From assembly GCA_964503265.1 (NCBI GenBank), contig CAZCYO010000005.1, positions 1 to 37,150 on the forward strand: DNA of 37,150 bases, written 5' to 3'. The position numbers and the translations under genes were made by a program. The notes below the pieces were generated by a model. That model had not been told where the DNA came from. It did not search any database and saw only the letters and a program-made list of their open reading frames with translations. Origin of the DNA: an uncultured Gammaproteobacteria bacterium. Its GTDB lineage: Bacteria > Patescibacteriota > Microgenomatia > Levybacterales > UBA12049. Positions 1 to 13,969 of the stretch are shown piece by piece (position 1 is the stretch's first letter; every line of letters begins with the position of its first letter).

Positions 1-54
1 CTACTTACTACTTACTACTTACTACTTACTACTTACTACTTACTACTTACTACT
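1..54. repeat. Heptamer tandem repeat (CTACTTA)x7 plus a partial copy, truncated by the window edge
   Basis: Seven exact copies at 1-49, then CTACT, abutting the stop codon of the 53..721 ORF. Confidence 0.95.
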
Positions 55-721
55 ACTCAATCGTCTTCTCAGGACCTTGGTATTGATACGCGTCGATAAA
101 ACCTTTAATACGCTCCATATCAAGGGTATTCATTTTAATTTGTTTCCCCCACGCAGAGACAGCAAGTGTCATATCCATATTTGGACGTGGAACGATAATA
201 AGTCTGTCATAACTGCTCAGAAGTCCGGTTAACAATGAAACAAGTTTTTTACATGAGTCATTTGTAAATGCTAGTGGTAGATCTTCTGCTTTTTTTGGAA
301 TATTGTTTGTTGGTGTAAAAAATGACATCGTATTTTCTTTTGGCGGTTCAATTGTCGTTAATGGGGCACCTTTAGCATAACTAAACGTCGCTGATGAAGA
401 AGCTTTATCTCCACAATTATAAGAAATCTCAACATATCCATGCTCTAGTGAATGAATTAAATGTCCGTCTGAAACCACATAAGGATATGCACCACGCTTG
501 GCCCAAATGGCAAAATGCTGACCACTTGTTGGCGGATTTGAATTGTAGACAATGCCTGAAATATCAGTTATATGATCTCGACTGAGTTCCTTAAGGCTTG
601 TAACGTTGAGGTTTTTAGTCGGAGCGTTAGTCGATGACTGTTTAAGAGAATACACTAACCATCCCCCACCAACAATAAGAAGAAGCACAAGTAATGCAAT
701 GAAAATAGTAGATTTATTCAT
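53..721 (-). CDS. DUF3105-like membrane-anchored protein
   Basis: N-terminal TM helix; motifs NPPTSGQHF, HSLEHG and IIVPRP...AVSAWG, typical of DUF3105; TACAAT 7 nt upstream of the ATG. Confidence 0.7.
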   Translation of the reverse strand: MNKSTIFIALLVLLLIVGGGWLVYSLKQSSTNAPTKNLNVTSLKELSRDHITDISGIVYNSNPPTSGQHFAIWAKRGAYPYVVSDGHLIHSLEHGYVEISYNCGDKASSSATFSYAKGAPLTTIEPPKENTMSFFTPTNNIPKKAEDLPLAFTNDSCKKLVSLLTGLLSSYDRLIIVPRPNMDMTLAVSAWGKQIKMNTLDMERIKGFIDAYQYQGPEKTIE

Positions 722-746
722 GATTGGTATTGTACAGGAAGTTATG

Positions 747-849
747 TTTAATTTTCAATTCGAAATTTTTAAGTTTTAATCAAATCAAAAAGTTTTAATA
801 GGTAAATCTTAAAAATTGATTTAACATTTCAAATTAAAAATTATAAATT
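747..849. repeat. AT-rich imperfect palindromic intergenic element (same family as 30720..30813)
   Basis: Shares TTAATTTTCAAT, ATCAAATC, GTTTTAAT, TAAAAATTGATT, ATTTCAAATT and AATTAAAAATT in the same order with 30720..30813. Confidence 0.7.
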
Positions 850-854
850 AAGGT

Positions 855-2519
855 CTATCCAAGCTCTTCTCGCTTACTATGCAGAAAGTGGAACCATTGT
901 TCAAAGAAGGCAAAGATTACTTTAAATGGTGTTTCGATCACAAAATCGATGATGAGGATAATAAAATTAAATCGTCCAATTTGTTCGGTAAGCCGTCTTC
1001 CAACTCTAACTACAGGCATAAAGAGAAAATCGACAAGTGGGGTTACCAGTCCCTGGCTATCTCCGACACGGTAGCGATTAGCGATAATACTAATTCTGTA
1101 TGCAAGGAATGAAACGATGGCTGAGAAGAAAACGAAAATCGCCATACTAATAATTCTAAAATGCAGTAACTCTAGTGCGTAAATAATACCTCCAAATGAA
1201 ACCAGAAACGCACAGCTCCAGAGTAGTCCGAACACAAAATTAAGGACTGGCTGCGCCTTTTCTTCTCCCTTTCGAACTCGCATATCTTCACCAAGTTTTG
1301 CACTATCTTGATGCATGATTCGTGCTAAATAGCGATAAATTCGATCAGAATTATCAAGACCTGGTGTGCGAATAAAAAGACTCACGATAATAAGGAGAAG
1401 TGGTGGAATTGTCGTGTTAATAATAATTGAAGTCCATTGAATCTCACCATACACAATATTTTCATATGTCCCTTCGATAGCAAAAGCAAATAATACCTTG
1501 GAGAACAGAATAAATATCACACTACGAACGATAGCCCGTGTTACCTTCGAGCGAATACTTATGTATCGTTTATCACATTCAGCGTACACTGCTGTTTTTA
1601 ATTCGTCAGGATGTGTTAAGACCTGGCGCAAATTTCCTTTATAATTCGTTAACACATCCTCAAGAATAAGAAACACCGCAGTTCGTTTTTTTACATAGGC
1701 ATAGATGCGATCCTTCGCAAAATAACTTAACTGACGCTGTGCTTCCTGGTAGCAATCAAAAAAGTCTTCAGCAACACTATCAATTCTTCCTCTCGTCAGT
1801 TCTCCGAAATAAAGTCTGAACAAATGATACTCAAGAAAGGCGATGTCATCTCTCGCAAATGCACGTCTGATCGCGATATATACCTGAGCGTTTTTCGTTT
1901 CCTCTGTTTCATCAACGATATGTACCTGTTCTTTTAAAATATGGTACATAAAATTACTGACTGTTTCCTTCTCAACCTCTGGGTGAATAATATGCTCCAA
2001 GTGACTCGCCATTAAATGGTAGATCCATTCATTCACTATTCCCTCAGGAAGCTTGCGCTGCGCTAAAATTTTAAAACGAAGCTGGAGATACATATCAATT
2101 GTCTCTTCCACTTTCGTAACCATTGATTCTGGAACTGAATTATCCTCTAAATACCGTGCCCAAATAAGCTCACGCACAAGTGGTTCAGCAGCAGTCTTCG
2201 CATTTCCACCCAGAAGGAGCCGGCGGCGCAAAATACGTTCAATAGTAGAACGTAAGATAACCTCTTCTTCTCGATATTCCATCGCATTGCGCAGTTTTTC
2301 ATACCAGTGCGCCACTTTAGAGACGACAGGATTAACCGTCATTTTCCGTTCGTGATTATTATCTTTTGGTTGCTCAACTGCCTGAACGACGAGTTCTCCG
2401 AGATGTGATAGTGGTTTTACTTCACTAACAGGTGGTGGTTCAGTAGCTACTGGTTGTTGTGTAACAGCAGGTTCAACTGGAGAATGTTGGGTTGTATCAG
2501 TCATAGAGTCAGTATTCAT
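855..2519 (-). CDS. Uncharacterised membrane protein (large soluble N-terminal domain, C-terminal TM helices)
   Basis: 554-aa ORF with a P/T/Q-rich N-terminus, a helical core (EEEVILRSTIERILRRRLL) and about 4-5 hydrophobic segments at the C-terminus. Confidence 0.75.
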   Translation of the reverse strand: MNTDSMTDTTQHSPVEPAVTQQPVATEPPPVSEVKPLSHLGELVVQAVEQPKDNNHERKMTVNPVVSKVAHWYEKLRNAMEYREEEVILRSTIERILRRRLLLGGNAKTAAEPLVRELIWARYLEDNSVPESMVTKVEETIDMYLQLRFKILAQRKLPEGIVNEWIYHLMASHLEHIIHPEVEKETVSNFMYHILKEQVHIVDETEETKNAQVYIAIRRAFARDDIAFLEYHLFRLYFGELTRGRIDSVAEDFFDCYQEAQRQLSYFAKDRIYAYVKKRTAVFLILEDVLTNYKGNLRQVLTHPDELKTAVYAECDKRYISIRSKVTRAIVRSVIFILFSKVLFAFAIEGTYENIVYGEIQWTSIIINTTIPPLLLIIVSLFIRTPGLDNSDRIYRYLARIMHQDSAKLGEDMRVRKGEEKAQPVLNFVFGLLWSCAFLVSFGGIIYALELLHFRIISMAIFVFFSAIVSFLAYRISIIANRYRVGDSQGLVTPLVDFLFMPVVRVGRRLTEQIGRFNFIILIIDFVIETPFKVIFAFFEQWFHFLHSKREELG

Positions 2520-2616
2520 TATATACTATTTATCCCTTACAAAAAAAACGAACGTTGTCGTTATAGACGAATATTACGTTGACAATCCAGCCTCTTTTTA
2601 GTAGTGTTATGTGTAT

Positions 2617-3510
2617 ATGGCAGGAACTTCTCGCATGAAAAAATCCGTTTCTTCTGAAACAACACACGAATTTACGCCTCAGCCTGAAAGAAGCTATGTA
2701 AAAATTCCTGTTCCAACTATTGATCTATCAACATTCACCACACCAAAAGCACTCCTCGTACTCGTGCTTCTCTCATATCTCATATCTGGCGTTCTCTATA
2801 TGAGAATTCGTATGCTTGAAGGCTCTGGAGACGGTGGTGGTGTACCGACAGTCGTTTCAACATCAGCGAGTACTGTGACTGACGCATTTATCGACTTTGC
2901 TAAAAACGCAAAAATGGATACGAAAAAATTTACCTCTTGCCTTACAGCTCATACCTTTGCTGATAAAATCACGGCTGATATTAGTGATGGGACAACAGCT
3001 GGTATCAATGCTACTCCTGGATTTGTCGTTAACGGGAATGTCGTCATCGGCGCACAACCATTTGAGACATTTAAAACAATTATTGATCAAGAACTGGCAC
3101 GAGCAGAGAGTAATCAGTCATTCGCCTTTATTCCTAAAGCCTACGGGGAGGAAACAATTTCTAATGGTGCTCCTAAGGTATCTGTTTCAAATGGTCACTT
3201 ACCTATGTTAGGCAAACAGAATGCGAAAGTAACAATTATTGAATTTAGTGATTTCCAGTGTCCCTTCTGTGAACAATTTTTTACAAAAACATTTGCGCAA
3301 ATAAAAAAGACCTATATCGATACGGGGAAAGTAAAACTATACTTTAGACAATATCCATTAACCAGTATTCACCCAAACGCACAAATTGCCGCTGAAGCAG
3401 CTGAATGTGCGAATGCACAAGGTAAATTTTGGCAGTTTCATGATATGCTGTTTACGAACCAGGCATCATGGGTCAACTTACCGCAAGCACCAACAACCTC
3501 AGCAACATAA
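2617..3510 (+). CDS. DsbA-like (thioredoxin-fold) oxidoreductase, circularly permuted, with N-terminal TM anchor
   Basis: The segment EFSDFQCPFC...HPNAQIAAEAAECANAQGKFWQFHDMLF lies after the normally C-terminal segment GINATPGFVVNG...GAQPFETFKTIIDQEL. Confidence 0.85.
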   Translation: MAGTSRMKKSVSSETTHEFTPQPERSYVKIPVPTIDLSTFTTPKALLVLVLLSYLISGVLYMRIRMLEGSGDGGGVPTVVSTSASTVTDAFIDFAKNAKMDTKKFTSCLTAHTFADKITADISDGTTAGINATPGFVVNGNVVIGAQPFETFKTIIDQELARAESNQSFAFIPKAYGEETISNGAPKVSVSNGHLPMLGKQNAKVTIIEFSDFQCPFCEQFFTKTFAQIKKTYIDTGKVKLYFRQYPLTSIHPNAQIAAEAAECANAQGKFWQFHDMLFTNQASWVNLPQAPTTSAT

Positions 3511-3512
3511 CT

Positions 3513-4055
3513 ATGAAGCAGCACTCACTTGCCCAATCAGTTACGAAACAACTAACAGTTCCTGTAGTACTTTCAGCAATCGTTTTTGCTGTGAGTTACC
3601 TCAGTATTTTGATTTACGCGCCAAATTATCGCCTCCTTGAGACGTTAGCACAAAATAACTATCCGCTCTCAGTTAAGATGTCACTCATATGGAATTTATT
3701 TCTCGGTGGACTTATCACACAGTCATTCTTTGGAGTCACGTTACTCCTCATTATCGCCTCTTTGATTGGCATGAATCTCGCACTTTTTCTTAAGAGTTAC
3801 CAAACTGTTAAGAAAAATGGTAAAGCGCATTTTGCAGTTGGTGGAAGTATGGTGCTTGGATTTATGAGTACGAGTTGTGCTGTGATGTGTGGGTTTTCAC
3901 TCCTTCCCCTACTGGGAACAACACTTGGCGCAAGTTTTTCAGCCATTGATGGGATTGCGTTTCGGATAATTACAATCAGCCTCTTAAGTGTTTCTTTGTG
4001 GTATACACTTAACTCCTCAAGAGATAATCGAAGCTGGATTAGCACGAAGAGCTAG
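3513..4055 (+). CDS. Four-TM membrane protein with a CxxxC motif, probably co-transcribed with the DsbA-like gene
   Basis: ATG 2 nt after the DsbA stop; hydrophobic helices; STSCAVMCG. Confidence 0.7.
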   Translation: MKQHSLAQSVTKQLTVPVVLSAIVFAVSYLSILIYAPNYRLLETLAQNNYPLSVKMSLIWNLFLGGLITQSFFGVTLLLIIASLIGMNLALFLKSYQTVKKNGKAHFAVGGSMVLGFMSTSCAVMCGFSLLPLLGTTLGASFSAIDGIAFRIITISLLSVSLWYTLNSSRDNRSWISTKS

Positions 4056-4059
4056 ACAG

Positions 4060-4812
4060 TTATTGTAATGTCGTAATAAGAACTGAAACAAATACCATTC
4101 CCAAGATAAAAAAGACAATATTTTTGACTGCTTGTCCTTTTTCGCTTTGGTGGTGAATCTCTGGCAGTAGATCTGTCATCGCAAGATAAATAAAATTTCC
4201 TGTCGTAATACTTAAAAGAAGTGGAACCATACCAGAGAATGTATTTCCTAAATAATAGGCTAGCAGTGCTCCAACAATTGAGGTGAGTCCGGTAATAACG
4301 TTAAACCAGAGTACTTTGCCTCTTCCCCAGCCTTTATGCAGTAAAATACCAAAATCTCCAAGTTCATGTGGAATTTCATGCACAAAAACTGTCAAACTCG
4401 TGACAATTCCAAGAGCAGGATTAACTAAAAAGCTCGCAGCAATAGATGCACCGTCGATAAAATTATGTAGCCCATCTCCAAAGAGTAGTAATGGTGTTGG
4501 TAAGCGTAACGATCCGTTATCGACACTATCATCTTCATGATGGTGAATTGAGAGGAATAGCCGCTCAAGAATAAAAAATCCCACAATTGAAATCATCACC
4601 CAGAGAAGAATTGGTGCATCCCCTCCCATCTCTAATGCTTCTTTCAGTGTATCTAAAAAAGCTGTAGCAAGCAGTGCTCCAGCTGCAAAAGAGACTAACG
4701 AAAATGATAATTTGTGAATTAACTTTTCTTTAAGTAGTAATATACTCACTAAAAAGAGTGAAAGAATGGTCGCAATGAATGTAAATAGTAATATGTACGC
4801 TATTGTTGACAT
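4060..4812 (-). CDS. ZIP family zinc/divalent metal transporter
   Basis: His-rich loop HHHEDD; signatures GDGLHNFIDG and HEIPHELGDF; start overlaps the end of the Fur-family gene. Confidence 0.92.
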   Translation of the reverse strand: MSTIAYILLFTFIATILSLFLVSILLLKEKLIHKLSFSLVSFAAGALLATAFLDTLKEALEMGGDAPILLWVMISIVGFFILERLFLSIHHHEDDSVDNGSLRLPTPLLLFGDGLHNFIDGASIAASFLVNPALGIVTSLTVFVHEIPHELGDFGILLHKGWGRGKVLWFNVITGLTSIVGALLAYYLGNTFSGMVPLLLSITTGNFIYLAMTDLLPEIHHQSEKGQAVKNIVFFILGMVFVSVLITTLQ

Positions 4813-5213
4813 GATGAACACACTCCAAAAAATTCTAAGGCATGTTTTTTAACGAGAAAGCCTTTTTTCTCGCGAATTTCTGTTTCAAGACCTGAGAGAT
4901 TACAATCTGAAATGTCTTCGATCTTTGAACAATTCGTACAGATCAGATGATGATGTTCCTCTCGTGCTGTTAGTTCGTAACGAAATTTTCCCTCCTGAAA
5001 TTCAAAGCGAGTAATAATACCATGCTCTAAAAATGACTCAAGCATACGGTACACTGTCGCTTGATCAACTGTTACACCACGTTTCTCAAGACGTACGTGG
5101 AGCTGTGTAACATCAAGTGGACGAAGTTCTTCTGAAAAAATATGGAGTAACTCCAGCCGTGATGGTGTTTTTCGTAGGTTATGGTCGTCTAATTGTTTAA
5201 TCTGTTGTTTCAT
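4800..5213 (-). CDS. zur: Fur-family transcriptional regulator, probably Zur
   Basis: ATVYRML helix-turn-helix, HHHLICTNC and CSSC zinc motifs; coupled to a ZIP transporter; start trimmed to MKQQ. Confidence 0.8.
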   Translation of the reverse strand: MKQQIKQLDDHNLRKTPSRLELLHIFSEELRPLDVTQLHVRLEKRGVTVDQATVYRMLESFLEHGIITRFEFQEGKFRYELTAREEHHHLICTNCSKIEDISDCNLSGLETEIREKKGFLVKKHALEFFGVCSSCQQ

Positions 5214-5223
5214 AAGTGAGGGC

Positions 5224-5255
5224 GTGGCTGTATCGATAATCACCGATACAGCCAC
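5224..5255. promoter_or_regulatory. Perfect 12-bp hairpin in the 5' leader of the Fur-family gene
   Basis: GTGGCTGTATCG-N8-CGATACAGCCAC. Confidence 0.6.
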
Positions 5256-5284
5256 TGTATTGTGTCAAATCTCGTAGTTACTAT

Positions 5285-5349
5285 TGCGAGTAACTTGCAT
5301 TAGTATATGCGAATGATTCGCATTTGTCAAGTGGTGTATTTGATATAAT
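5285..5349. promoter_or_regulatory. Divergent promoters with two 7-1-7 Fur/Zur-type boxes
   Basis: TGCGAGT-A-ACTTGCA (5285-5299) and TGCGAAT-G-ATTCGCA (5308-5322); minus-strand TTGACA(5330-5325)-N17-TATACT(5307-5302); plus-strand TGnTATAAT (5341-5349). Confidence 0.75.
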
Positions 5350-5355
5350 GAGCAA

Positions 5356-6474
5356 ATGAAACGATTTTTTCTCGTAACGCTTCTCTCTTGTCTGTTTTGT
5401 CTTTCTCTTTTCCAACGATCTGCACTCGCTGCAGATACTAGAATTGAACAAAACCTAAAAGGAAAAGTCACAGCCATACTCGAAGATTCAGAAAAATCAC
5501 TATTAGGAAAGCCCTCTCCCGTTCAAAAAATAGAAATCCAATTACTTGATGCACCTGAGAAAAACAAGAAAATAACAGTTACCTATGGTGAAACAGTTCC
5601 TATCACTAAAGGCCAAAAAGTCGCAGTTGGAGAGACAGTGCTTCTCACAAAAACCTCGACTCCGAACAAGCAAATATACACGATTACAGATAAATACCGT
5701 CTAACACCGCTTATTATTATGGTCGTTTTCTTTTTCCTCTTCGTGAGTATTCTGGCTGGAAAAAAAGGGATTGGAGCAGTGATTGGCATGTTTATTAGCC
5801 TTGGTGTTATCGTATTATTTATCGTGCCTCAAATCTTACAAGGAAATGATCCCCTCTTAATCTCTATCATCGGCTGTATTGGGATTATGGTGACGACCAT
5901 CTATCTCGCACATGGTATCTCCCAACAAACAACTGTCGCCGTCGCATCAACGGCAATTAGTTTAGTGTTAACAGGTTTTTGTGGCTGGTTTTTTATCTCA
6001 GTCATTCATTTAGCTGGACTCGGGGCTGAAGATATTTTTACACTGCAGCAAAGTATCGGCAATAGTATTAATTATCAGGGCTTACTCCTCGGTGGCATCA
6101 TTATCGGTGCACTCGGAGCACTTGATGACGTCACGACGACACAATCAGCAACGATTTATACACTAGCAAAAGCAGATCCGAAAGCTTCTATGGAAACACT
6201 CATTACACACGGCTTCTCAATCGGCAAAGAACATATCGCGTCTCTGGTTAACACACTCGTTCTCGCCTATGCAGGAGCGTCGATCGGGATATTTTTCTTT
6301 CTTGTTATCAGTCAGCAAAATCAGATACAACCACTGTGGGTAATTTTAAATAGTGAAACGATCGTCGAGGAAGTGGTGCGGACGATCGCAGGAAGTATCG
6401 GACTCATACTCGCTGTGCCGTTAACGACAGTGATCGCAGCGTTTTTCGCGAAGTATGACTTGAAAATAACCTAA
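5356..6474 (+). CDS. YibE/F family membrane protein
   Basis: Multi-TM; IIIGALGALDDVTTTQ, HIASLVNTLVLAYAGAS and EEVVRTIAGSIGLILAVPLTT motifs. Confidence 0.88.
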   Translation: MKRFFLVTLLSCLFCLSLFQRSALAADTRIEQNLKGKVTAILEDSEKSLLGKPSPVQKIEIQLLDAPEKNKKITVTYGETVPITKGQKVAVGETVLLTKTSTPNKQIYTITDKYRLTPLIIMVVFFFLFVSILAGKKGIGAVIGMFISLGVIVLFIVPQILQGNDPLLISIIGCIGIMVTTIYLAHGISQQTTVAVASTAISLVLTGFCGWFFISVIHLAGLGAEDIFTLQQSIGNSINYQGLLLGGIIIGALGALDDVTTTQSATIYTLAKADPKASMETLITHGFSIGKEHIASLVNTLVLAYAGASIGIFFFLVISQQNQIQPLWVILNSETIVEEVVRTIAGSIGLILAVPLTTVIAAFFAKYDLKIT

Positions 6475-10668: not shown

Positions 10669-12450
10669 TTATTTCTTCGCTCCTTGATCGTTAAACATCG
10701 CAATTAACTCTTTCACACTCGTCGCGTCTTCTGGTTTTTTATCTCGGTCACGAAACGTAATAAGACGTGGGAACCTGAGAGCGTAGCCAGGTTGCATCAC
10801 TCCGTCTACGTCACGAGCTCCAGCTGTATGCATCGGGCTTCTGGTGATTTCGTCTGCTAACACTTCTATAACGAGCTCAGGTTTTAGCCAGACACTAGGA
10901 ATAATTTTTGAATTTACTCGTGCAGGTTTATTTTCTTGCTCTAAGCCCTTTGCTCGTTGCTTTATACTCGTCCACTCTTCATCTGTCAGTCCAGTTCCGA
11001 TTCTCGTGACACTCACAAATTCATCTGATTCTGCGTCATAGAGTCCCACCAGCAGTGCCCCCGCCCCAAATGCTGTCCGTTTGCCTTTTCCATAAATATA
11101 CCCCAGAATGACACAGTCAATCGTGTCTGAGAGCTCTCCACTTGAATGACGTTTTAGTTTTATCCAGTTAAAATTACGCCCCCCTGCTTCATAGAGTGAG
11201 TCAAGCCGTTTGACGACGACTCCTTCAAGACCTTTTGAAATACTGTCATCAAGCATGAGCTGGAGGTCTTCAGGTTTTTTCAGAATTCGAGCAGGGGCTG
11301 GAATCAGTGTTTCAGTTCCGTCAATTGCTTTTTTAATCATTTCTGTACGCTCAGAAAGAGGTGTATCCATCAGAGATTTACCGTCATAGTAGAGAATATC
11401 GAAGACGAAAGCTTTTAGCGGTAATTGTTTGGCGACTTCATCGATGTTATGTTTGCGACGCCTCTTCGTCGTTTCTTGAAACGGGAGAAACTCTTCAGAT
11501 TCTGGCTGGTACGCGATCGCTTCACTGTCTAATATCGCAGTTTTGGCTTTAATTTGTGAGAGAGTACCCTCAATAAGCTCTGGGAACATGTGCGTCATCT
11601 CCTCGAGATTTCGAGAAAACATACGAACAGTGTTACCATTCTTATGAATTTGCACTCGAAATCCGTCGTATTTAGGAGTACAGTGTAACCCAACTCCCTC
11701 CGGATCCATTTTCTCAAATACTTTCACTGGATTTGGAATTCGTTCACAAAGTTCTGACCGGATCGGCTGACCAACTTTTACACCAAGTTTTCGAACTTCT
11801 TCAAGTCCTTCACTTGCTAATGTTTTACCGATGAGTCCCAGGTCTGATGTCTCGTTATATGCTTTCTCGAGTACTTTTCTCTCTTTACGATCCCCCACAT
11901 ATGAGAGTGCAAGACCATCAAGAACAGTTGGATCTCCAATCCCAAGTCGATTGTTACCCAGAGGAATTCGAGTTAAATGCTTAATCGACACACCGTGAAA
12001 CGAAACAAGTAGATCACGCAGCATACCAATTTTTTTCTCGACCGACCCATCTCCACCCGTATTCGCAATTTCTGTCAGTGCTTCAAATACTTCTTTAACC
12101 GTCTCTTTGCTCTTTGCCCTTTGCTCTTGGCTAAGCAAACTTTCCTGAGGGTGCTTGGAAAATTCTTCAGCCACAGTTCCCATATCCCCTTTCTTCTCAT
12201 ACTCTTTAAGCACTTCCTCTTTCGTACTTCCGTATGCGAGTGCCACGGCTTGGGCTACCATCTTATCTGCCATACCGATTTCAATCGGTGCATAAAATGG
12301 TGCGACACGCCCCTGAGTCAAATAAATCACCTGCTCAATTTCATCTTTTTTCGTGTGTTTAAATAGTTCAACGAGGATATCTATTAACGCGAGGCGAGAA
12401 GAGGTTTCTTCGAGTTTTTCAAAATAACCTGTCAATTCTGTAAATTGCAT
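10669..12450 (-). CDS. lig: ATP-dependent DNA ligase (three-domain, archaeal/eukaryotic LigI-like)
   Basis: KYDG motif I, LDSEAI, FVFDIL, EGVVVK, WIKLK, ALRFPR; N-terminal DNA-binding domain. Confidence 0.95.
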   Translation of the reverse strand: MQFTELTGYFEKLEETSSRLALIDILVELFKHTKKDEIEQVIYLTQGRVAPFYAPIEIGMADKMVAQAVALAYGSTKEEVLKEYEKKGDMGTVAEEFSKHPQESLLSQEQRAKSKETVKEVFEALTEIANTGGDGSVEKKIGMLRDLLVSFHGVSIKHLTRIPLGNNRLGIGDPTVLDGLALSYVGDRKERKVLEKAYNETSDLGLIGKTLASEGLEEVRKLGVKVGQPIRSELCERIPNPVKVFEKMDPEGVGLHCTPKYDGFRVQIHKNGNTVRMFSRNLEEMTHMFPELIEGTLSQIKAKTAILDSEAIAYQPESEEFLPFQETTKRRRKHNIDEVAKQLPLKAFVFDILYYDGKSLMDTPLSERTEMIKKAIDGTETLIPAPARILKKPEDLQLMLDDSISKGLEGVVVKRLDSLYEAGGRNFNWIKLKRHSSGELSDTIDCVILGYIYGKGKRTAFGAGALLVGLYDAESDEFVSVTRIGTGLTDEEWTSIKQRAKGLEQENKPARVNSKIIPSVWLKPELVIEVLADEITRSPMHTAGARDVDGVMQPGYALRFPRLITFRDRDKKPEDATSVKELIAMFNDQGAKK

Positions 12451-12519
12451 GGGTTAATAATACCACATTTCGAAGCTATTTCTCACCAGCTATACGAACA
12501 TGCAGAGGAAATAGTACTA

Positions 12520-13575
12520 CTACGTCATTAAATACCGTGCAGCTTTTGTTTTTCCTTGTTTCTTAACAAGTCCTGCCGTGAGAAGTACTTTCAAGTCATT
12601 TAAGACTGTGTCTTCTGACACGAACGGGAACAGTTGTTTAAAGCCACTATTTTGTAGATATCCTACTTTTTGAATGTATTCGATAATTTGGAGCTGGCGA
12701 TCAGTTAACATAAGTGGTGTCCCTCCCAGTTTTTCTTTTAACTTCACATCGACTGAAATATGCTCGACTTTTTCTCGTATTTTCGTAAGTTCAATCGCCA
12801 ATCCCTGCGTATAGTATTCAAGCCACTGTGTTAGATTCCCTTCGTTTCGACTAACACTTTGCAGCGCGTCATAATACCCGACAGCATCAGAGTCGAAGTA
12901 TTCCTCAAGTGAGAAGAATTTTCTGATGTCATACCCATCTTGAAAGAGTACGAGTGTAGAAAGTGCACGACCAAGTCGTCCGTTTCCATCGATAAATGGA
13001 TGAATGCGCACGAATTCATAGTGAACAATGCCGCTTTTTAGTACAGGATGTATCATTTCACCAGTCGTCGTGTTAATAAAGTCGAGCAACTCCTGCATTT
13101 GAAATTCGATGGCTACAGCAAGCGGTGGTCTGAATGTTACTTCCCCGGTCAAACTATTTTTTACCACTACCTGGGTCTTTCGATATTCACCAGAACGTTC
13201 GGGATCAAGGATCCGGTCGACAGTTAACTTATGCATTTTTTTAATAACTTCTGCATCAATAATCCGTCGTTTCCCTTCTTCCTCTGTTACCTCCCCTATC
13301 ACATCCATAACACGGCGATAATTAATAATCTCCTGGACGTCACGTTCACGTGCGACCACTTGTTGACCAAGCATGATTCGCTCGGCTTGGTTTAAATTTA
13401 ACTCATTTCCCTCCAAGTGAGTTCCGTGATGAACTGCGCGAACAATAGCATCATTTTGGAATTTTTTCTCATAATACGGAAGCAGTGGCGCGGTATCAAT
13501 AACATGCTTACTTGCTTCAACTGCGCCGATATTTTGCAGGATTTTATTCGATATCGTAAAGACAGGAGTATACAT
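12520..13575 (-). CDS. Fic family protein with C-terminal winged-helix region
   Basis: HPFIDGNGRLGR catalytic motif; GTHLEGN at the inhibitory-helix position; start trimmed to MYTPVF. Confidence 0.9.
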   Translation of the reverse strand: MYTPVFTISNKILQNIGAVEASKHVIDTAPLLPYYEKKFQNDAIVRAVHHGTHLEGNELNLNQAERIMLGQQVVARERDVQEIINYRRVMDVIGEVTEEEGKRRIIDAEVIKKMHKLTVDRILDPERSGEYRKTQVVVKNSLTGEVTFRPPLAVAIEFQMQELLDFINTTTGEMIHPVLKSGIVHYEFVRIHPFIDGNGRLGRALSTLVLFQDGYDIRKFFSLEEYFDSDAVGYYDALQSVSRNEGNLTQWLEYYTQGLAIELTKIREKVEHISVDVKLKEKLGGTPLMLTDRQLQIIEYIQKVGYLQNSGFKQLFPFVSEDTVLNDLKVLLTAGLVKKQGKTKAARYLMT

Positions 13576-13648
13576 AGAACTTGACCAATTCTTGCATATT
13601 TCCCGAGAGAGTGCAACTTTTTTGACATAGTCTGATATAATAATTCCG

Positions 13649-13969
13649 ATGGCAAAATCGAGAAAATCCCATAAAAAAGAACTCGTCAAATCTGCACAAA
13701 AACCACTCCATGTCGAGGTGGTTCGTCAAATGCTCGCACTCGCGACAAGTGGATTTGGACTCGTTGCAGCATTGGCATGGAATAACGTCATCCAGGAGTT
13801 TGTAAATACGTATGTCAAGAAATTTTTACCTCAAGGAAGTGGCATGCTTTCTCTTCTTATCTATGCGATCATTGTGACAGTTTTTGGAGTCATCATCACC
13901 TATCAGATATCTAAAATCTTAGCCAAAGTCGATCCTGATTCATCAGATCACCCGCTTAAAATCAAGTAG
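13649..13969 (+). CDS. DUF5654 family small membrane protein
   Basis: LATSGFGLVAALAWN...LLIYAIIVT; TGnTATAAT 7 nt upstream of the ATG. Confidence 0.75.
   Translation: MAKSRKSHKKELVKSAQKPLHVEVVRQMLALATSGFGLVAALAWNNVIQEFVNTYVKKFLPQGSGMLSLLIYAIIVTVFGVIITYQISKILAKVDPDSSDHPLKIK

What the first reader, a model, noticed from the sequence alone, without database searches (positions are those of the whole stretch)
2617..3510. Naturally circularly permuted DsbA-like oxidoreductase
Established knowledge: in DsbA/Thioredoxin_4 proteins the order is CxxC, HP...A..AA.CA..QGKFW..HD.LF, helical insert, then G..TP.F.VNG...GAQP. Seen in sequence: the order is reversed. The cis-Pro segment (ATP at 3010-3018) comes first and CPFC (3259-3270) later. 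The ORF ends right after MLFTNQASW, exactly where the N-terminal piece (DAFIDFAKNAKMDTKKFTSCL) would normally begin, so each half is present once. The junctions echo each other (TSAST near the start of the permuted part, TSAT at the C-terminus), and the linker contains a signal-peptide-like FAFIPKAYGEE. Inference: permutation through tandem duplication and trimming.
Basis: partly seen in the sequence, partly recalled or inferred. Interest (0 to 1): 0.7.

Follow-up and report, generated by a model that had tools for sequence, protein, structure and literature searches.

The report
Naturally circularly permuted membrane-anchored DsbA
This intact gene from a tiny uncultured (CPR/Patescibacteria-type) bacterium encodes a membrane-tethered disulfide-bond enzyme of the DsbA type whose two sequence halves are in swapped order yet are predicted to form the normal fold; it is a conserved natural counterpart of a permuted DsbA that protein engineers made in 1999.

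Summary
ORF 2617..3510 (+, 297 aa) encodes a cytoplasmic tail, one TM helix, the C-terminal half of a DsbA/Thioredoxin_4 domain (with the Thr-Pro loop), a 27-aa linker, then the N-terminal half with CPFC. Pfam and PDB alignments need two stretches in swapped order; a canonical relative aligns in one.

It is not a misassembly. At least 40 collinear homologs (42-70% identity) come from independent assemblies, and a contig from another study spans the junctions without gaps.

AlphaFold gives a confident model (domain pLDDT >95). Foldseek aligns canonical DsbAs over only about 98 columns, but the engineered permutant cpDsbA_Q100T99 (1UN2) over 209 columns (TM 0.61). Profile alignment places the new N-terminus at E. 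coli DsbA residues ~100-102, the engineered cut site.

A second permuted family has a different anchor, linker and tail, which suggests at least two origins. The tree test does not prove this.

Tandem DsbA arrays and adjacent gene pairs are plausible raw material. The long linkers of relatives retain the ancestral spacer. The "TSAST/TSAT echo" is compositional.

I found no published description, but earlier agents of this scan reported the same fold swap in other genomes. The redox partner is unknown.

The parts
2617..3510 (+). Gene for the permuted DsbA-like protein (297 aa plus stop). ATG 2617 is the preferred start; the database call starts at ATG 2635 and the longest ORF at GTG 2611.
   Evidence: the homologs start MAG...
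2617..2745 (+). Cytoplasmic N-terminal tail (residues 1-43). It carries the conserved motif Y-x-[KE]-[IL]-[PR]-[VI]-P (YVKIPVP, 2695-2715), which canonical relatives L016 and L012 also have.
2746..2808 (+). The single transmembrane anchor (residues 44-64).
   Evidence: Kyte-Doolittle maximum of 2.16; long helix at the matching position in the AF2 model (residues 37-62 of the 291-aa numbering, +6 for this numbering)
2809..2877 (+). Gly/Ser/Thr-rich tether between the anchor and the domain (residues 65-87).
   Evidence: low pLDDT over roughly this stretch (block of 10 residues with mean 50; <50 at 65-69 of the 291-aa numbering); variable in the alignment
2878..3108 (+). The C-terminal half of the DsbA domain, placed first (residues 88-164). 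It comprises helices a4-a6, the Thr-Pro (cis-Pro) loop ATP at 3010-3018, two strands and the last helix. It contains the invariant Cys108 (2938-2940).
3109..3189 (+). Linker joining the ancestral C- and N-termini (residues 165-191). It includes FAFIPKAYGEE (3121-3153), a degenerate copy of the subfamily motif [hydrophobic]-P-[KQ]-A-x-A-Q.
   Evidence: pLDDT about 70; mean hydropathy -0.5, so not a TM segment; 21 of the 34 strain differences fall between 3096 and 3191; family comparison
3190..3468 (+). The N-terminal half of the DsbA domain, placed last (residues 192-284). It comprises b1, the active site CPFC (3259-3270), helix a1, b3 and helices a2-a3. It contains the invariant Cys264 (3406-3408).
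3469..3507 (+). C-terminal tail W-x-N-L-P followed by S/T-rich residues (residues 285-297). The W..LP motif is specific to type-1 permuted proteins.
3513..4055 (+). Downstream gene starting 2 nt after the stop: a 180-aa polytopic membrane protein with a conserved Cys pair in a predicted helix (SCAVMC here; CASC in distant homologs). It has no family match and is present in only some of the related loci.
855..2519 (-). Divergently transcribed 554-aa membrane protein of unknown family. It is a conserved neighbour in all five type-1 loci whose gene tables were fetched (L001-L006).

Best explanation
The gene encodes a functional, membrane-anchored, extracytoplasmic thiol-disulfide oxidoreductase of the DsbA / BdbD / MdbA type (Pfam Thioredoxin_4), and its single domain is a natural circular permutant.

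The chain runs in this order:
- a cytoplasmic tail;
- one TM helix (N-in);
- a short tether;
- helices a4-a6, the Thr-cisPro loop, b4-b5 and a7;
- a flexible linker that closes the ancestral termini;
- b1, CPFC-a1, b3 and a2-a3.

The chain is opened in the a3/a4 loop of the helical insert. This is the same loop as in the laboratory permutant cpDsbA_Q100T99.

The two halves fold onto each other into one DsbA fold. A Cys pair that is also found in canonical relatives (Cys108 and Cys264, one in each half) probably forms a helical-domain disulfide that now ties the regions next to the new termini.

The CPFC pair would exchange disulfides with exported proteins. The partner that recycles it is unknown.

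Shown here: the order of segments, conservation, synteny, the predicted fold and independent assembly. Inferred: topology, the staple disulfide, and catalysis as an oxidase.
For: Order of segments:
- The halves are swapped against Pfam and PDB, while a canonical relative is collinear.

Conservation:
- 34 collinear homologs have invariant CPFC, T-P, Cys108 and Cys264.
- The census of fetched proteins gives 40 C-then-N proteins, plus 18 of a second type.

Fold:
- AF2 gives mean pLDDT 87 and pTM 0.73, with both halves at 93-98.
- Foldseek aligns canonical DsbAs over only about 98 columns (TM 0.33-0.42), but 1UN2 cpDsbA_Q100T99 over 209 columns (TM 0.61).
- hhalign places family residues 75-138 on E. 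coli DsbA 102-161.

Reality of the gene:
- Gene order is conserved in independent metagenomes.
- A contig from a different study covers 2741-3430 with 34 substitutions and no gap or joint, and the substitutions cluster in the linker.
- A metatranscriptome contig lies on 3014-3172.
- There is one TM segment only, and only four Cys, all invariant.
Against: - There is no biochemical or structural experiment.
- The AF2 model was not checked with a permutation-aware superposition, and I could not read its coordinates, so the Cys108-Cys264 distance and the packing of the halves rest on pTM and the 1UN2 match (rmsd 6.8 A, 13% identity).
- No DsbB, VKOR or CcdA gene is in the window. The genome could not be searched.
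- The direction of electron flow (oxidase, reductase or isomerase) is therefore open. The neighbourhood of trxA/trxB seen in relatives would also fit a reducing pathway.
Confidence: 0.87

Rival explanations
1. Assembly artefact: a collapsed or mis-joined tandem duplication of an ordinary dsbA gene produced an apparent C-half/N-half ORF.
For: Tandem DsbA arrays and adjacent dsbA gene pairs exist. Such repeats can confuse assemblers.
Against: - The same order occurs in at least 40 diverged homologs from many samples and assemblers.
- The flanking genes are the same in those loci.
- An independent contig from another study spans anchor, C-half, linker and N-half with 5% divergence and no joint or loose end.
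- No internal repeat is needed, because each half occurs once.
Confidence: 0.01
2. Decaying remnant: a truncated piece of a former two-domain (N-C-N-C) DsbA whose halves no longer form a working domain.
For: The arrangement is exactly what trimming of a tandem protein gives. The closest high-scoring database hits are tandem proteins.
Against: - The catalytic and structural residues are invariant across 34 sequences at 42-70% identity.
- The family has its own conserved tail motif W..LP and its own anchor.
- The ORF is intact, with conserved synteny.
- Strain differences concentrate in the linker rather than in the halves.
- The single-domain model is confident.
Confidence: 0.03
3. Obligate domain-swapped oligomer: the C-half of one chain pairs with the N-half of another, instead of the two halves closing within one chain.
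For: Permuted and half-domain proteins can swap. Only a monomer was modelled. Some family members have very short linkers, such as P0007 with about 9 residues.
Against: The engineered cpDsbA joins the old termini with only a few residues (my recollection of Hennecke et al. 1999) and is deposited as preserving the global fold (PDB 1UN2 title). Linkers of 9-70 residues are therefore long enough for closure within one chain. pTM is 0.73 for the monomer even with about 80 non-domain residues.
Confidence: 0.07

Closest known systems
Engineered circular permutant cpDsbA_Q100T99 of E. coli DsbA (PDB 1UN2; from the random circular permutation study of Hennecke, Sebbel and Glockshuber, J Mol Biol 1999, cited in PMC13552848 and PMC3281007)
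   Same: The connectivity is the same. The chain starts in the a3/a4 loop of the helical insert and the old termini are joined by a linker. It is the only PDB entry that aligns over both halves of the model (209 columns, TM 0.61). The new N-terminus maps to DsbA residues about 100-102.
   Different: - This protein is natural, conserved and membrane-anchored.
- It shares only 13% identity with 1UN2.
- It belongs to the BdbD/MdbA-like Thioredoxin_4 branch: CPFC and Thr-cisPro instead of CPHC and Val-cisPro.
- Its linker is long (27 aa here, 9-70 in relatives).
- It has an extra conserved Cys pair.
Canonical membrane-anchored or secreted DsbA-like proteins of Gram-positive type: C. diphtheriae DsbA/TsdA (4PWP, 7UNN), B. 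subtilis BdbD (3EU3), Wolbachia alpha-DsbA1 (3F4R)
   Same: These are the best sequence relatives with solved structures (E 1e-18 to 1e-20). They share the CPxC site, the Thr-Pro loop and the helical insert. From memory, alpha-DsbA1 has a second disulfide (C97-C146) whose 49-residue spacing matches the 50-residue ECA...CL spacing of canonical relatives here.
   Different: They are collinear (N-half then C-half), whereas the window protein needs two alignment stretches in reversed order. Foldseek aligns them over one half only.
Canonical TM-anchored DsbAs of Microgenomates-type CPR bacteria (L012 and L056 Levyibacteriota; L016)
   Same: They are the nearest un-permuted relatives in the tree (the 95-supported clade with the permuted family). 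They share the cytoplasmic Y-x-E-x-K-x-P anchor motif and the NGHLP-x-LG segment before the CxxC strand. Identity is 54% over the N-half and 41% over the C-half.
   Different: Their order is anchor-N-C. They lack the W..LP tail and the A-x-A-Q linker motif.
Tandem multi-DsbA proteins (N-C repeated 2-6 times or more, up to 1196 aa; Myxococcota, Acidobacteriota, archaea, CPR)
   Same: Any window running from mid-domain to mid-domain of these proteins has the C-linker-N order. They therefore give the top scores in profile searches and are the obvious raw material for the permutation.
   Different: They contain complete domains at both ends. The window protein has exactly one of each half.

Membership tests
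DsbA-like thioredoxin-fold oxidoreductases (Pfam Thioredoxin_4 PF13462 / DSBA PF01323) | Score above the curated Pfam threshold | tested here: met
   Thioredoxin_4 scores 122.4 bits against a cut-off of 23.2. DSBA scores 43.4 against 25.6.
DsbA-like thioredoxin-fold oxidoreductases (Pfam Thioredoxin_4 PF13462 / DSBA PF01323) | CxxC active site at the start of helix a1 | tested here: met
   CPFC lies at residues 215-218 (3259-3270) and is invariant in 34/34 sequences. A helix starts right at or after the CPFC in the model.
DsbA-like thioredoxin-fold oxidoreductases (Pfam Thioredoxin_4 PF13462 / DSBA PF01323) | Conserved cis-proline loop facing the active site | tested here: inconclusive
   Thr133-Pro134 is invariant and aligns with the TP/VP loop of solved DsbAs. 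The cis conformation and proximity to CPFC could not be read from the model.
DsbA-like thioredoxin-fold oxidoreductases (Pfam Thioredoxin_4 PF13462 / DSBA PF01323) | Helical insert domain within the thioredoxin fold | tested here: met
   The model has helices at 81-91, 96-104, 109-121, 249-261 and 265-274. It matches DsbA structures, including 1UN2.
DsbA-like thioredoxin-fold oxidoreductases (Pfam Thioredoxin_4 PF13462 / DSBA PF01323) | Canonical linear order: CxxC half, helical insert, then cis-Pro half | tested here: not met
   The order is reversed. This is the finding itself. It changes the connectivity, not the fold.
DsbA-like thioredoxin-fold oxidoreductases (Pfam Thioredoxin_4 PF13462 / DSBA PF01323) | Thiol-disulfide exchange activity and an oxidising redox potential | not testable with these tools
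   This needs purified protein.
Circular permutant of DsbA opened in the a3/a4 loop (as in cpDsbA_Q100T99) | New termini in the a3/a4 loop, old termini joined, global fold kept | tested here: met
   hhalign places the domain start at DsbA residues about 100-102. Foldseek aligns 209 columns to 1UN2 with TM 0.61. A 27-aa linker joins the old termini.
NCBIfam NF041057 Rcas_1661 family thioredoxin-like (seleno)lipoprotein | Score above the curated cut-off of 190 bits | tested here: not met
   The score is 137.3 bits in 2 stretches.
DsbB / VKOR / CcdA (as the identity of the co-transcribed 180-aa membrane protein) | Match to the family profile | tested here: not met
   There is no Pfam or NCBIfam hit at E <= 0.01. 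The AF2 model was too poor (pLDDT 63.9) for a fold search.

The most novel reading that the evidence does not exclude
The permuted DsbA and the 180-aa membrane protein that starts 2 nt after its stop (conserved Cys pair inside a predicted helix, no known family) form a new kind of disulfide relay in CPR bacteria, which largely lack quinone-based respiration. In this reading, moving the membrane tether from the thioredoxin sheet to the helical domain re-orients the active site toward this partner. Selection for that geometry would explain why the same a3/a4-loop permutation was fixed more than once, in type 1 and type 2 families with different anchors, linkers and tails.
Probability: 0.1. Interest if true: 0.8.

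Novelty: new variant of a known kind. Interest (0 to 1): 0.58.

Why it matters
DsbA is a textbook model for oxidative protein folding and for circular-permutation engineering. A conserved natural permutant, cut in the same loop that random permutation in the laboratory found permissive, shows that evolution has used that route. It also gives a natural series for studying how permutations arise: canonical proteins, tandem arrays, adjacent gene pairs, and two permuted families.

There is a practical point as well. Linear domain models annotate these proteins only as generic 'thioredoxin domain-containing' proteins, and sequential structure searches see half of the fold. Permutation-aware tools are needed to classify them.

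It also bears on how ultra-small CPR bacteria make extracytoplasmic disulfides, since no DsbB or VKOR is visible nearby.

Tried and rejected
- **Whole-genome search.** I could not look for DsbB/VKOR/CcdA or for canonical DsbA paralogs in the window's own genome, nor name its taxon.
- **Representative-library profile search.** The top 150 hits were swamped by multi-repeat tandem DsbA proteins. Only 4 permuted cluster representatives were visible, so this gave no family-size estimate.
- **GTDB scan.** Only 6 of the 80 loci kept are permuted, so the taxonomic spread is a lower bound.
- **Tree tests of independent origin.** Holding all 40 permuted proteins in one clade gave p-AU 0.048, which is borderline. 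Holding core type 1 plus type 2 together gave p-AU 0.265, which is not rejected. The domain core (170 columns) cannot decide the number of origins. That argument rests on anchor, linker and tail signatures.
- **Structure of the 180-aa downstream protein.** The AF2 model was poor (pLDDT 63.9, and below 50 around the Cys pair), so I ran no fold search on it.
- **Head/tail 'echo'.** As a duplication scar it is not above composition.
- **Linker versus canonical pre-domain spacer.** The match is significant only for the long linkers of relatives (z about 5, driven largely by a PTPTP run). It is not significant for the window's own short linker (z 0.0).
- **Promoter and terminator scan.** Nothing was found upstream of the gene at the tool's threshold. 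A TTGACA at 2579-2584, with a weak TAGTGT 17 nt later, is seen by eye only.
- **Literature.** Four full-text searches found only the engineered DsbA permutants and no natural one.

Full report
**What is there**

The ORF 2611..3510 (+) is open for 299 codons.

Residue numbers in this report count from ATG 2617 unless stated otherwise. Searches count from the GTG at 2611 (2 higher). Searches count from ATG 2635 (6 lower).

In Pfam, residues 198-290 match positions 6-96 of Thioredoxin_4 and residues 91-158 match positions 123-190 of DSBA. Against solved structures, query 200-283 aligns with residues 72-153 of C. diphtheriae DsbA (4PWP) and query 91-165 with residues 166-241. The half that carries the cis-Pro loop therefore comes first and the CxxC half second, and each occurs once. 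As a control, a canonical relative (L032) aligns with the same structures in one collinear stretch.

The protein has one hydrophobic segment (residues 44-64). Its linker is polar, with mean hydropathy about -0.5. It has only four cysteines: 108, 215, 218 and 264.

**It is real and conserved**

A search of 5.8 billion proteins returned many proteins of 240-320 aa that align over 89-99% of the query. Their sequences have the same order. In an alignment of 34 of them (41-70% identity), several features are invariant:
- CPFC;
- the Thr-Pro of the cis-Pro loop;
- one extra Cys in each half (SCL and ECA).

I built half-domain HMMs and classified the proteins and locus ORFs fetched up to that point:

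| Architecture | Count |
|---|---|
| C-then-N (permuted) | 40 |
| N-C (canonical) | 40 |
| N-C-N-C | 90 |
| Three units | 122 |
| Four units | 30 |
| Five and six units | a few |

The gene neighbourhood is conserved in independent metagenomes and in the window. The order is: trxB, trxA, DUF3105 and a ~530-560-aa unknown membrane protein on one strand; divergently, the permuted dsbA, often followed by a ~180-aa membrane protein; then a ZIP or ZnuABC transporter, Fur and YibE/F.

The best DNA holder is probably the source sample. A 2024 groundwater metagenome from another study holds a 690-nt contig covering 2741-3430 with 34 substitutions and no gap, joint or loose end. Of those substitutions, 21 lie between 3096 and 3191, which is essentially the linker. 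A wastewater metatranscriptome contig lies on 3014-3172. Misassembly is therefore excluded for practical purposes, and the substitution pattern fits selection on both halves.

**Fold**

AlphaFold2 with the 34-sequence alignment gave mean pLDDT 87 and pTM 0.73. Blocks of 10 residues score 93-98 through both halves and about 70 in the linker.

Foldseek against the PDB aligned canonical DsbAs (BdbD 3EU3, alpha-DsbA1 3F4R, 4PWO) over only 89-103 columns, with target-normalised TM 0.33-0.42. That is what a sequential aligner does with a permuted query. The engineered 'circularly permuted CPDSBA_Q100T99' (1UN2) aligned over 209 columns with TM 0.61.

A profile comparison with E. coli DsbA aligned family residues 75-138 (numbering from ATG 2635), the start of the domain right after the tether, with DsbA residues 102-161. 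The natural chain break thus falls in the a3/a4 loop of the helical insert, at the position of the engineered Q100/T99 termini.

I could not read model coordinates. The packing of the two halves rests on pTM and the 1UN2 match, and the proposed Cys108-Cys264 disulfide rests on invariance. The same pair is conserved in canonical and tandem relatives. Its 50-residue spacing there resembles the C97-C146 disulfide of Wolbachia alpha-DsbA1, which I recall from memory and did not test.

**Origin**

The un-permuted N+C units of the main family fall in a supported clade (SH-aLRT 95) with three canonical TM-anchored DsbAs: L012 and L056 (Levyibacteriota) and L016. These canonical proteins share two features with the permuted family:
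- the cytoplasmic Y-x-E-x-K-x-P anchor motif;
- the NGHLP-x-LG segment before the CxxC strand.

The change was therefore anchor-N-C to anchor-C-N within this lineage.

Raw material is plentiful. Tandem DsbA proteins of 2-6 or more units dominate profile searches, and a Patescibacteria contig (L081) carries two adjacent anchored dsbA genes.

In relatives with long linkers (P0069, P0077, P0049, P0063), the 3' part of the linker is significantly similar to the anchor-to-domain spacer of canonical L016 (G..L.GA..G..PTPTP; z about 5, 0 of 300 shuffles). The hydrophobic, A-x-A-Q-terminated stretch lies where a second anchor would be. This fits a duplication that included the anchor, followed by fusion and loss of the first N-half and the last C-half. 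It is suggestive only, because the score leans on a PTPTP run, and the window's own 27-aa linker shows no such similarity.

**More than one origin?**

A second family (type 2: L008 and 17 further proteins) has these distinguishing features:
- a different anchor (KLFLPGAILLAG);
- a linker ending VSVDDDPVLG;
- a chain end directly after HDKIF-x-EQ;
- no W..LP tail.

L008 is closer to the canonical Parcubacteria-type L032 in three separate segments than to the window protein: anchor 75% over 24 aa, N-half 57% and C-half 51%, against 42% overall. I read this as an independent permutation at the same loop, with a probability of about 0.7.

The domain-core tree cannot prove it. Forcing all permuted proteins into one clade gives p-AU 0.048. 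Forcing core type 1 plus type 2 together gives 0.265.

**Function and mechanism**

By family membership the protein should catalyse thiol-disulfide exchange on exported proteins outside the membrane. The Thr-cisPro and CPxC features place it with the Gram-positive BdbD/MdbA/SaDsbA type.

Which way electrons flow is open. No DsbB, VKOR or CcdA is encoded in the 37-kb window, and the genome search tool was shut.

The gene that starts 2 nt after the stop encodes a 180-aa polytopic membrane protein with a conserved Cys pair in a predicted helix (SCAVMC here; CASC in 25-28%-identical homologs). It has no Pfam or NCBIfam match. It is absent from some loci (L005, L007-L011), and its model was too poor to search. 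It is a candidate partner, not an established one.

**Comparison with what is known, and novelty**

The closest known object is the engineered cpDsbA_Q100T99. The closest natural relatives are canonical CPR, actinobacterial and Bacillus DsbA-like proteins.

The window protein passes every membership feature of the DsbA-like family that I could test except the linear order, which is the point of interest.

NCBI annotates a family member only as 'thioredoxin domain-containing protein'. NCBIfam gives a below-threshold match to an unrelated lipoprotein family.

Four full-text searches found only the engineered permutants. The 2026 CIRPIN survey of natural permutations mentions DsbA only as a citation of the 1999 engineering paper.

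Earlier agents of this scan, working on other genomes, reached the same reading, including the 1UN2 match and multiple origins. I reached mine before reading theirs, but they are not independent evidence.

My verdict is a new variant of a known kind: a neat and apparently unpublished natural circular permutation, not a new kind of system.

Noticed in passing
window 3513-4055 (+): A 180-aa polytopic membrane protein starts 2 nt after the dsbA stop. It has a conserved Cys pair inside a predicted helix (GF..TSCAVMCG here; T.GCASC in distant homologs) and no Pfam or NCBIfam family. It is present downstream of the permuted dsbA in some lineages only. It could be a redox or metal-handling partner.
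   Followed up: partly
window 855-2519 (-): A 554-aa protein with a soluble N-terminal part and several C-terminal membrane segments has no family match. It is the divergent neighbour of the permuted dsbA in every type-1 locus whose gene table was fetched (526-558 aa in L001-L006), and it ends in the conserved ...FFEQWFHFLHSKREEL. An earlier scan note describes an 'unknown 555-aa membrane protein' in a CPR thiol-disulfide island of another genome.
   Followed up: partly
window 53-6474 and loci L001-L006: A gene block is conserved across diverged CPR genomes: (trxB, trxA,) DUF3105, the unknown ~550-aa membrane protein, then divergently the permuted dsbA (+/- the 180-aa protein), a ZIP or ZnuABC zinc transporter, a Fur-family regulator and YibE/F. 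Thiol-redox and zinc-homeostasis genes travel together.
   Followed up: partly
window 2695-2715; also L012, L016: A conserved cytoplasmic motif, Y-x-[EK]-[IL]-[PRK]-[IVL]-P, lies about 10-15 residues before the TM anchor. Permuted and canonical Microgenomates-type DsbAs share it, and its function is unknown (perhaps a targeting or insertion signal).
   Followed up: no
proteins P0121-P0261: Very long proteins are made of up to six or more tandem DsbA/Thioredoxin_4 domains (for example P0121 at 1163 aa and P0124 at 1196 aa). They are common in public metagenomes and outscore single-domain proteins in profile searches.
   Followed up: no
loci L011 and L016 (GTDB records): Two records titled 'uncultured Gammaproteobacteria bacterium' carry CPR-type anchored DsbA genes, one permuted and one canonical with the Microgenomates anchor motif. 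The bin labels look doubtful.
   Followed up: no
window 3096-3191: In a related strain from a groundwater metagenome, 21 of 34 substitutions over 690 nt fall in this ~95-nt linker region. The linker evolves much faster than the two half-domains.
   Followed up: partly
window 10669-13689 (-): An ATP-dependent DNA ligase (593 aa, three Pfam ligase domains) lies next to a 389-aa Fic/DOC-domain protein.
   Followed up: no
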